A stretch of DNA of 64,000 nucleotides from the NCBI RefSeq assembly GCF_009914755.1, contig NC_060936.1; one strand, written 5' to 3'. The position numbers and the translations under genes were made by a program. Under the pieces are notes generated by a model, which had not been told where the DNA came from, did no database searches, and saw only the letters and a program-made list of their open reading frames with translations. Positions 61,333 to 62,458 of this stretch are shown here, piece after piece (within the stretch, counting starts at the first letter, position 1; each line of letters opens with the position of its first letter). This DNA is from the human T2T-CHM13v2.0 reference genome, Homo sapiens.

Positions 61333-61637
61333 TTTTGTTTTGTTTTGTTTTGTTTTTGAGTTGGAGTCTCACTCCATCACCCAGGCTGGAGCACAGTGGC
61401 AACATCCCAGCCCACCACAACCCCCGCCTCCGAGGCTCAAGTGACTCTCCCCCTCAAGCTGCGCAAGCAGCTGGAACCACAGGCACGGGCCACCACGTCC
61501 AGCCATCCTTGCATTTCTGCAGAGTCAGGATTTCAGCATGTTGGCCAGGCTGGCCTTCAACTCCTAACCCCAGGCAATCCACCTGCCTCAGCCTCCCAAA
61601 GTGCTGAGATTACAGGCGTGAGCCACTGTGCCCGGTA
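61333..61637 (-). mobile_element. AluS inside retrocopy, T>C hypermutated
   Basis: TSD CATTTGTCTAATTT (61322 and 61639); about 20 T>C changes versus consensus by eye. Confidence 0.9.
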
Positions 61638-61746
61638 CCATTTGTCTAATTTGAAGATATAATTGTCCCTTGCTATCCATGGGGTTTTGGTTTCACGACC
61701 CCCTAGGACCTGAGGATGCTTAAGTCCCTTAGATAAAATGACATAA

Positions 61747-62037
61747 GGCTGGGTGCAGTGGTTCACGCCTGTAATCCTAGCACTTTGTGAGGCCGAGGCA
61801 GGCAGATCACCCGAGATCAGGAGTTCAAGACCAGCCTGCCCAACACCACAAAACCAGTCTCCACTAAGAAATACAAAAATTAGCTGGGCCTGGTGGCAGG
61901 TGCCTGCAATCCCAGCCACTCGGGCAGCTGAGGCCTGAGAACCTCTTGAACCCAGGAGGCGGAGGCTGCAGAGAGCCAAGATGGCACCACTGCACTCCAT
62001 CCTGGGCAACAGAGTGAGATTCTGTTAAAAAAAAAAT
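61747..62037 (+). mobile_element. AluS inside retrocopy, T>C shifted
   Basis: Forward Alu with GATCACCCGAG, TCTCCACT, CCTGCAATC, CAGCCACT, GAGAACC. Confidence 0.9.
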
Positions 62038-62103
62038 ACATATGTAACAAACCTGCACGTTGTGCACATGTACCCTAAAACTTAAAGTATAACAATAATA
62101 AAA
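62036..62103 (+). mobile_element. ~65-bp L1PA 3' tip in the Alu A-tail
   Basis: ATACATATGTAACAAACCTGCACGTTGTGCACATGTACCCTAAAACTTAAAGTATAA. Confidence 0.9.
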
Positions 62104-62154
62104 TTTTAAAAAAATAGTATTTGCATGTAACATATGCACATCTTCATCACATAC

Positions 62155-62458
62155 TTTATTTATTTATTCTGAGACAAGGTCTTGCACTGCCACCCAGGCT
62201 GGAGTGCAGTGCCATGATCATAGCTCAGTGCAGCCTCTGCCTCCCAGACTCAAGCGATCCTCCCACCTCAGCCTCTGGAGTAGCCAGGACCACAGGCACA
62301 CACCACCACGCCCAGCTAATCTTTGTATTCCTCATAGGGACAGAGCTTGCTCTGTCAGCAGGCTGGAGTGCAGAGGCATGATCTTGGCTCACTGCAATCT
62401 CTCCCTCCCGGGTTCAAGAGATTCTCCTGCCTCAGCCTCCTGAGTAGCTGGGATTACA
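62155..62458 (-). mobile_element. Two fused partial Alu right arms (AluJ-like then AluS-like)
   Basis: Reverse right arm and linker to ~62340, then a second right arm ending GCTGGGATTACA. Confidence 0.85.

What the first reader, a model, noticed from the sequence alone, without database searches (positions are those of the whole stretch)
61333..62340. Fossilised ADAR A-to-I hyper-editing in the inverted Alus of a retrocopied mRNA
Seen: the Alu at 61333-61637 has about 20 T>C changes on the plus strand versus Alu consensus by eye. Examples: ATCTCGGCTCACTGCAACCTCC became ATCCCAGCCCACCACAACCCCC; GTAGCTGGGATTAC became GCAGCTGGAACCAC; GCTAATTTTTGTATTTTTAGTAG became GCCATCCTTGCATTTCTGCAG. The oppositely oriented Alu ~110 bp away (61747-62037) also shifts T>C (CACCTG>CACCCG, TCTCTACT>TCTCCACT, CTGTAATC>CTGCAATC, AGCTACT>AGCCACT, GAATC>GAACC), as does the AluJ at 62155 (AGCCAGGACCAC, ATTCCTC). 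The bias therefore follows the retrocopy strand (A>G on the minus/transcript strand), not Alu orientation. Known: ADAR edits both arms of inverted-Alu dsRNA in 3'UTRs and RT reads inosine as G; CpG decay and APOBEC give C>T/G>A instead. Inference: one hyper-edited germline mRNA molecule was reverse transcribed and fixed, preserving an ancient editing pattern. Some new CGs appear to have decayed later (CACTGC>CACCAC).
Basis: partly seen in the sequence, partly recalled or inferred. Interest (0 to 1): 0.88.

Follow-up and report, generated by a model that had tools for sequence, protein, structure and literature searches.

The report
Ancient RNA edits frozen in DNA
A copy of the tail of the XIAP messenger RNA sits on chromosome 12 with A-to-G changes crowded into its hairpin-forming Alu repeats, likely RNA edits made by ADAR and written into DNA tens of millions of years ago, and four more such copies elsewhere suggest a readable fossil record of RNA editing.

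Summary
Confirmed and extended. Window 60849-62340 is a minus-strand copy of the last ~1.5 kb of the XIAP 3'UTR (chrX). Its terminal Alu has G at 21 of 56 conserved A sites where XIAP has A; 69 background Alus average 4.3% A>G (max 12.9%). The non-Alu tail shows 7 of 141 A>G. Tests fit ADAR: 5' neighbour U 6/7, A 6/14, C 4/16, G 5/19; 7 of 8 present-day XIAP editing sites in that Alu are G here (p=0.003); new CpGs have decayed like old ones. It is not unique: two independent XIAP copies on chr1 carry 23 and 10 such changes at overlapping sites, one flips its bias across a 5' inversion, and a chrX copy has 0 of 24. A motif scan found two more edited copies of other parents (2 of 23 hits). No description found in ten open-access searches; subscription papers unseen.

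The parts
60819..60830 (-). Target-site duplication, 3' copy (GCATTTCAGTTT on plus)
   Evidence: 12-bp exact match with 62813-62824
60831..60848 (-). Degenerate poly(A) tail
   Evidence: not in the parent downstream of the cleavage site
60849..61334 (-). Unique (non-Alu) 3' end of XIAP 3'UTR with AATAAA; internal control, A>G 7 of 141, T>C 3 of 204 when polarised
   Evidence: p=0.098
61335..61638 (-). Terminal Alu (sense in the mRNA), hyper-changed: G at 21 of 56 conserved A sites (61375, 61392, 61407, 61412, 61416, 61423, 61436, 61445, 61451, 61455, 61468, 61478, 61504, 61507, 61508, 61512, 61517, 61520, 61554, 61570, 61575); alignment around 61445-61465 is less certain
61639..61746 (-). 108-bp hairpin loop/spacer, A>G 0 of 33
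61747..62037 (+). Inverted Alu (antisense in the mRNA), the predicted pairing partner; 6 of 38 conserved sites changed. Appears to be a fusion of XIAP's two ancestral antisense Alus
62037..62107 (+). About 70 bp absent from XIAP, lying in the Alu's A-tail; looks like a LINE-1 3' end (label recalled, not tested)
62108..62340 (-). XIAP spacer and third Alu (sense in mRNA; 'AluJ' label recalled); A>G 7 of 44 versus T>C 3 of 43; 5' end of XIAP homology near 62340
62339..62452 (-). Alu right arm not matching XIAP; no donor identified (best hits 90-96%, generic); A>G 0 of 21
62453..62510 (-). About 58 bp copied from the flank of another Alu 176 kb downstream (chr12:126,780,268-126,780,334)
62511..62812 (-). 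Full-length non-XIAP Alu with A-tail; A>G 0 of 64 (internal control)
62813..62824 (-). Target-site duplication, 5' copy

Best explanation
The segment is a 5'-truncated copy of the XIAP 3'UTR whose inverted Alus carry an excess of A-to-G changes on the mRNA strand, likely because ADAR turned those adenosines into inosine in the folded mRNA and a LINE-1 reverse transcriptase then likely copied them as G into germline or early-embryo DNA. Shown: parentage, direction, strand, concentration in Alu arms, poly(A) and target duplication, recurrence in sibling copies, overlap with present-day editing sites. Predicted: the hairpin (left arms pair at -253 kcal/mol, z=-20). Inferred: ADAR as the enzyme (ADAR1 is shown to edit this UTR today, PMC5520689), LINE-1 as the copier, age of roughly 20-35 Myr (2.6% private change, recalled rate), and no present function for the copy.
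For: Parent is XIAP. 21 of 56 versus background mean 4.3%/max 12.9% of 69 Alus. Spacer 0 of 33, unique tail 7 of 141, non-XIAP Alus inside the same target duplication 0 of 64 and 0 of 21. 5' neighbour U 6/7, A 6/14, C 4/16, G 5/19; pooled over three copies 11/21, 20/42, 12/47, 11/57, in line with the U/A preference described in PMC526178 (passages). 7 of 8 present-day sites in this Alu are G, p=0.003; 8 of 8 in at least one copy. Siblings chr1:189.04M (23 of 56) and chr1:45.05M (10 of 56) overlap at 16 (expected 8.6, p=5e-5) and 9 (expected 3.8, p=3e-4) sites; chrX:146.97M has 0 of 24. In the chr1:189M copy the bias is A>G in the colinear part and T>C (10 of 28 versus 3 of 41, p=0.005) in its inverted 5' piece; a later Alu insertion in it shows 1 of 36 and 0 of 57. 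New CpGs: 1 of 5 intact versus 3 of 11 old ones here; 6 of 8 versus 8 of 11 in the chr1:189M copy. Two unrelated copies show the same pattern.
Against: 5'-G depletion is not significant in the window copy alone (p=0.17) and the pooled test reuses the same sites. Outside the terminal Alu only 1 of 6 present-day sites is G, and that one is the Alu consensus base. The unique tail has a slight A>G excess (7/141 versus 3/204, p=0.098). In a fold of today's parent, paired (38 of 126) and unpaired (16 of 42) sites are changed equally, though today's parent lacks the arm that paired there. Left arm is lightly changed (3 of 20) against 18 of 36 for the rest, unexplained. Present-day site lists are partial and could in principle be contaminated by reads from such copies. 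No primate orthologues were available.
Confidence: 0.92

Rival explanations
1. The G alleles were genomic at the time: either an ancestral XIAP allele (later converted back to consensus), or one edited 'master' retrocopy from which the three copies descend. The second form still needs one editing event but removes the independent replication.
For: The three copies share many sites (8 of 56 in all three). The window and chr1:189M copies share C at three sites of the right arm that XIAP has lost.
Against: XIAP's Alu keeps more than ten non-consensus bases shared with the copies across the same span, so it was not overwritten. The chrX:147M copy, which shares the older non-Alu states, has A at all 24 sites. 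Window and chr1:189M copies share 0 derived non-Alu changes, while each has 11 and 13 private ones; each has private A>G (4 and 6), and sharing is not nested. Different 5' ends and target duplications. Same sites are edited in RNA today.
Confidence: 0.04
2. A DNA-level A>G mutator acted during or after insertion (error-prone polymerase at A/T-A motifs, ADAR acting on the DNA strand of an RNA:DNA hybrid, or transcription-coupled asymmetry).
For: 5' U/A preference also fits a polymerase-eta-type motif (recalled); slight A>G excess in the unique tail.
Against: The A-rich unique tail and spacer are nearly spared, as are non-XIAP Alus in the same insertion. Bias follows the mRNA strand through an inversion. 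Deamination of the cDNA strand would give T>C on the mRNA strand, seen at 0 of 41. Sites coincide with RNA editing sites of XIAP.
Confidence: 0.03
3. Ordinary divergence of an old Alu, or misalignment.
For: The window copy has many other changes in this Alu (62 in 302 bp); background antisense-type T>C reaches 18.6% in 1 of 69 Alus, above the opposite Alu's 16%.
Against: Binomial p=7e-14 for 21 of 62 at the background rate; XIAP's own copy has 1 of 64; replicated in siblings.
Confidence: 0.01

Closest known systems
ADAR1 editing of inverted Alus in the XIAP 3'UTR (PMC5520689: passages, section 4 and supplement 1 part 1 read)
   Same: Same transcript, same Alu cluster (two of its sequencing amplicons fall in the third Alu and the antisense Alus, read by eye), same A>G type.
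   Different: There the change is in RNA only and the genome has A; here it is in genomic DNA of a copy.
L1-made processed pseudogenes / retrocopies (established knowledge)
   Same: Poly(A), target duplication, 5' truncation, 5' inversion in a sibling.
   Different: Only 3'UTR, no coding part, no RefSeq annotation in the window; carries a modification pattern of the template molecule.
APOBEC-edited retroelements fixed in genomes (PMC4866542 and PMC2873906: passages read)
   Same: A deaminase's clustered, strand-biased signature preserved by reverse transcription.
   Different: Those are G>A from cDNA deamination in LTR elements or Alus; this is A>G from RNA deamination in a cellular mRNA. PMC4866542 has no mention of ADAR in its main text.
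Ultra-edited human RNAs (PMC3197674: abstract passage)
   Same: More than 20 sites per molecule, mostly in sense Alus beside inverted Alus.
   Different: ESTs, not genomic copies; its text has no hit for retrotranspos-, pseudogene or reverse transcri-.
Retroprocessing of C-to-U edited transcripts in plant organelles (recalled, not read)
   Same: Edited RNA written back into DNA.
   Different: Different enzymes and genomes; replaces the gene rather than making a dispersed copy.

Membership tests
L1-type retrocopy | Colinear with a parent mRNA, ending at its poly(A) site | tested here: met
   ends 14-20 nt after AATAAA of XIAP
L1-type retrocopy | Untemplated poly(A) and target-site duplication | tested here: met
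   caveat: the 12-bp duplication may belong to the Alu at 62511-62812 if XIAP cDNA went into that Alu's tail
L1-type retrocopy | Loss of introns | tested here: inconclusive
   copy lies wholly within the last exon
ADAR hyper-editing signature | Clustered A>G on the RNA strand, exceeding other classes | tested here: met
ADAR hyper-editing signature | Located in long double-stranded RNA | tested here: met
   predicted fold only: 120 pairs between the two Alus' left arms; arms changed, spacer and tail spared
ADAR hyper-editing signature | 5' neighbour U>A>C>G | tested here: met
   order holds; 5'U p=0.009 in the window copy, 5'G p=0.17 alone and 0.007 pooled; 4/30 and 4/71 for 5'G in the two extra loci
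ADAR hyper-editing signature | 3' neighbour G preferred | tested here: inconclusive
   G 10/24, C 7/12, A 3/14, U 1/6
ADAR hyper-editing signature | Same sites edited in the parent RNA | tested here: met
   7 of 8 in the terminal Alu; 1 of 6 in the other two Alus
ADAR hyper-editing signature | Dependence on ADAR enzyme | not testable with these tools
   ancient event; present-day dependence shown in PMC5520689
APOBEC-edited retroelement | Clustered G>A on the sense strand | tested here: not met
   G>A 3 of 72

The most novel reading that the evidence does not exclude
Primate genomes hold a sizeable, unread class of retrocopies that are single-molecule records of germline A-to-I editing tens of millions of years old; editing hot spots of XIAP have stayed in place since then, and LINE-1 routinely turns RNA edits into heritable DNA sequence. 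Five such loci from three parents were found here with only three narrow motif scans and one parent search.
Probability: 0.6. Interest if true: 0.85.

Novelty: new variant of a known kind. Interest (0 to 1): 0.74.

Why it matters
It gives direct, datable evidence of which adenosines were edited, and how heavily, in individual germline or embryo mRNA molecules of ancestral primates, which cannot be had from living species. Three copies of one UTR act as three ancient reads (38%, 41%, 18% of conserved A sites) that agree with today's sites. It shows that heavily edited hairpin mRNA was likely reachable and copyable by LINE-1, a concrete route from RNA editing to inherited DNA change, which is discussed as a hypothesis in PMC10209271 (passages). 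Practically, such unannotated copies carry G at real XIAP editing sites and could confound editing or variant calls. The copy itself is probably inert.

Tried and rejected
My first guess for the hg19-to-locus offset was wrong; it gave a flattering overlap but put 4 of 9 sites on non-A bases. The unbiased scan gave one 9-of-9 offset, supported by a motif given for another site and by 18 of 18 sites falling on A; only that one is used. Motif scans: 2 of 5 hits of the first pattern were edited copies; 0 of 16 and 0 of 2 for the others, so prevalence is not estimated. No longer XIAP copy reaching further 5' was found; only three copies contain the spacer. No donor for 62339-62452. Paired-versus-unpaired test uninformative. 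Two apparent A>G at the third Alu's 5' junction were dropped as belonging to the non-XIAP arm, and sites where fewer than 70% of background Alus have A (for example 61496, 61486, 61459, 61408, 61382) were left out of the 56. Target duplication of the chrX:147M copy not convincingly found (6 bp), and only 8 bp exact for chr1:189M. DOI 10.1038/ncomms1525 was not held. The tumour table was cut when stored, lists differential sites only, and was searched for six coordinate prefixes, not the whole UTR.

Full report
Question. All quoted motifs are present.

Parent. The non-Alu part 60845-61335 matches five other places at 92-94% and an older, shorter family at 84-87%. One match, chrX:122.22M, lies 7 kb after an exon reading the XIAP RING end (read) and 27 kb after an exon whose translation hits XIAP structures at E=1e-98. 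The window copy is colinear with the last 1.5 kb of that 3'UTR, on the minus strand, and ends in a poly(A) shortly after AATAAA. The other four (chr1:189.04M, chr1:45.05M, chrX:146.97M, chr2:69.34M) are 5'-truncated copies with different ends; target duplications are 11 and 18 bp exact for chr1:45M and chr2, 8 bp exact for chr1:189M and not convincing for chrX:147M.

Anatomy. A 12-bp duplication at 60819-60830 and 62813-62824 brackets the whole. XIAP sequence runs 60849 to about 62340. Beyond it lie an Alu right arm of unknown donor, 58 bp copied from an Alu flank 176 kb away on chr12 and a full non-XIAP Alu. The simplest reading is that XIAP cDNA entered the A-tail of that Alu, with templated filler at the 5' junction; a single complex event is not excluded. 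The chr1:189M copy keeps, in an inverted 5' piece, parts of two antisense Alus; today's XIAP has lost the right arm of one, and the window copy appears to have fused them (inference).

The bias. Terminal Alu versus XIAP: A>G 26 of 84, T>C 1 of 49 (p=2.7e-5); spacer 0 of 33; unique tail 7 of 142 versus 5 of 208, or 7 of 141 versus 3 of 204 when polarised by the sibling majority (p=0.098). Against a consensus of 69 Alus from the fetched loci, the window Alu has 23 of 64, XIAP's 1 of 64, background mean 4.3%, maximum 12.9%. On the 56 strict sites it has 21. XIAP's Alu retains many non-consensus bases shared with the copies, so it was not overwritten by conversion. The opposite Alu has 6 of 38 versus 0 of 54, two checkable against XIAP; the third has 7 of 44 versus 3 of 43, weak. 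The two non-XIAP Alus inside the same duplication have 0 of 64 and 0 of 21.

Replication. chr1:189M has 23 of 56 and chr1:45M 10 of 56; overlaps with the window copy are 16 and 9 (p=5e-5, 3e-4); chrX:147M has 0 of the 24 sites it covers, where the window copy has 12. Window and chr1:189M copies share no derived non-Alu change, each has private A>G, and sharing is not nested, which favours separate edited molecules over one master copy. In chr1:189M the bias reads A>G on the locus strand in the colinear part and T>C (10 of 28 versus 3 of 41) in the inverted piece, measured against consensus; a younger Alu inserted in it is clean.

ADAR tests. 5' neighbour rates U 6/7, A 6/14, C 4/16, G 5/19 follow the U/A preference stated in PMC526178 (passages); G depletion is significant only when copies are pooled. 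The left arms are predicted to pair (-253 kcal/mol, z=-20); a paired-versus-unpaired test on today's parent showed no difference. ADAR1 edits this UTR today (PMC5520689). Eighteen present-day sites taken from supplements of PMC4742137 (9 rows), PMC10190536 and PMC8419749 all fall on A at one offset. Eight are strict sites of the terminal Alu: the window copy has G at 7 (p=0.003), chr1:189M at 7, chr1:45M at 4. Of six in the other two Alus, one is G, and it is the Alu consensus base. These lists are partial; one supplement was too large to read and one was cut.

Timing. Of CA sites that gained G, 1 of 5 is still CG in the window copy against 3 of 11 old CpGs; in chr1:189M 6 of 8 against 8 of 11. 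Private change in the unique tail is 2.6-4.1%, roughly 20-35 Myr at a recalled neutral rate.

Generality. A pattern with three edited TA sites had 5 hits genome-wide; 2 of 5 sit in inverted-Alu pairs with one-strand bias. Each has a single parent at 94-95%. chrX:114.35M from chr12:68.41M: Alu arms 18 of 53 and 22 of 89, spacer 4 of 199; chr2:212.49M from chr6:90.34M: 12 of 58, 17 of 91, 14 of 83, 7 of 73, spacer 4 of 230; 5'G 4 of 30 and 4 of 71. Both are bounded by 13-14 bp duplications on the side and strand expected. Their parent genes were not identified. Two other patterns gave 0 of 16 and 0 of 2.

Literature. Ten full-text searches of open-access papers (listings and abstract starts seen) returned no paper whose listing describes ADAR-edited retrocopies fixed in a mammalian genome. 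Passages read in PMC2873906, PMC4866542, PMC3197674, PMC2584115, PMC4598827 and PMC10209271 cover APOBEC-edited elements, ultra-edited ESTs, filtering of retroposed genes, and RNA-to-DNA editing as a hypothesis. Subscription papers, including 10.1038/ncomms1525 (not held), were not seen, so prior description cannot be excluded. Alu subfamily, LINE-1 and neighbouring-gene labels other than XIAP are recalled.

Verdict. Real, well supported, and broader than reported: a new variant of known things (retrocopy; deaminase footprints in genomes), useful because it makes ancient germline editing measurable.

Noticed in passing
L057:481-2419 (chrX:114.354-114.356M); parent L058 (chr12:68.406-68.408M): Second edited retrocopy: inverted Alu pair with T>C 18 of 53 and 22 of 89, clean spacer, 14-bp target duplication, almost no poly(A) tail; parent transcript not identified.
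   Followed up: partly
L060:124-2993 (chr2:212.491-212.494M); parent L061 (chr6:90.335-90.337M): Third parent: 2.9-kb copy with four Alus, three clearly biased to one strand, 13-bp target duplication and a short tail.
   Followed up: partly
L014:6416-8075 (chr1:189.04M): XIAP copy with a 5' inversion, a younger Alu inserted with its own 12-bp duplication, and the Alu arm that present-day XIAP has lost.
   Followed up: yes
window 62453-62510: 58 bp templated from chr12:126,780,268, 176 kb away, joined through an A-tail on one side and a 6-bp shared motif on the other.
   Followed up: partly
L007-L010 and 30 further hits (chr19, 20, 2, and tandem 6.2-6.3 kb arrays on chr3, 4, 13, 14, 15, 22): An older 240-bp copy of the XIAP 3' end (84-87%) has been multiplied in duplications and tandem arrays; these look like the ZNF285 duplications and the acrocentric composite repeat (labels recalled).
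   Followed up: no
L011:7889 and 8347 (window 61840, 61382): XIAP has A where the Alu consensus has G, both are edited today, and most copies have G: either later G>A changes in XIAP or near-fully edited mismatch sites already then.
   Followed up: partly
L012:884-1164 (XIAP intron): The background Alu with the highest T>C rate against consensus (21.7%); not examined.
   Followed up: no
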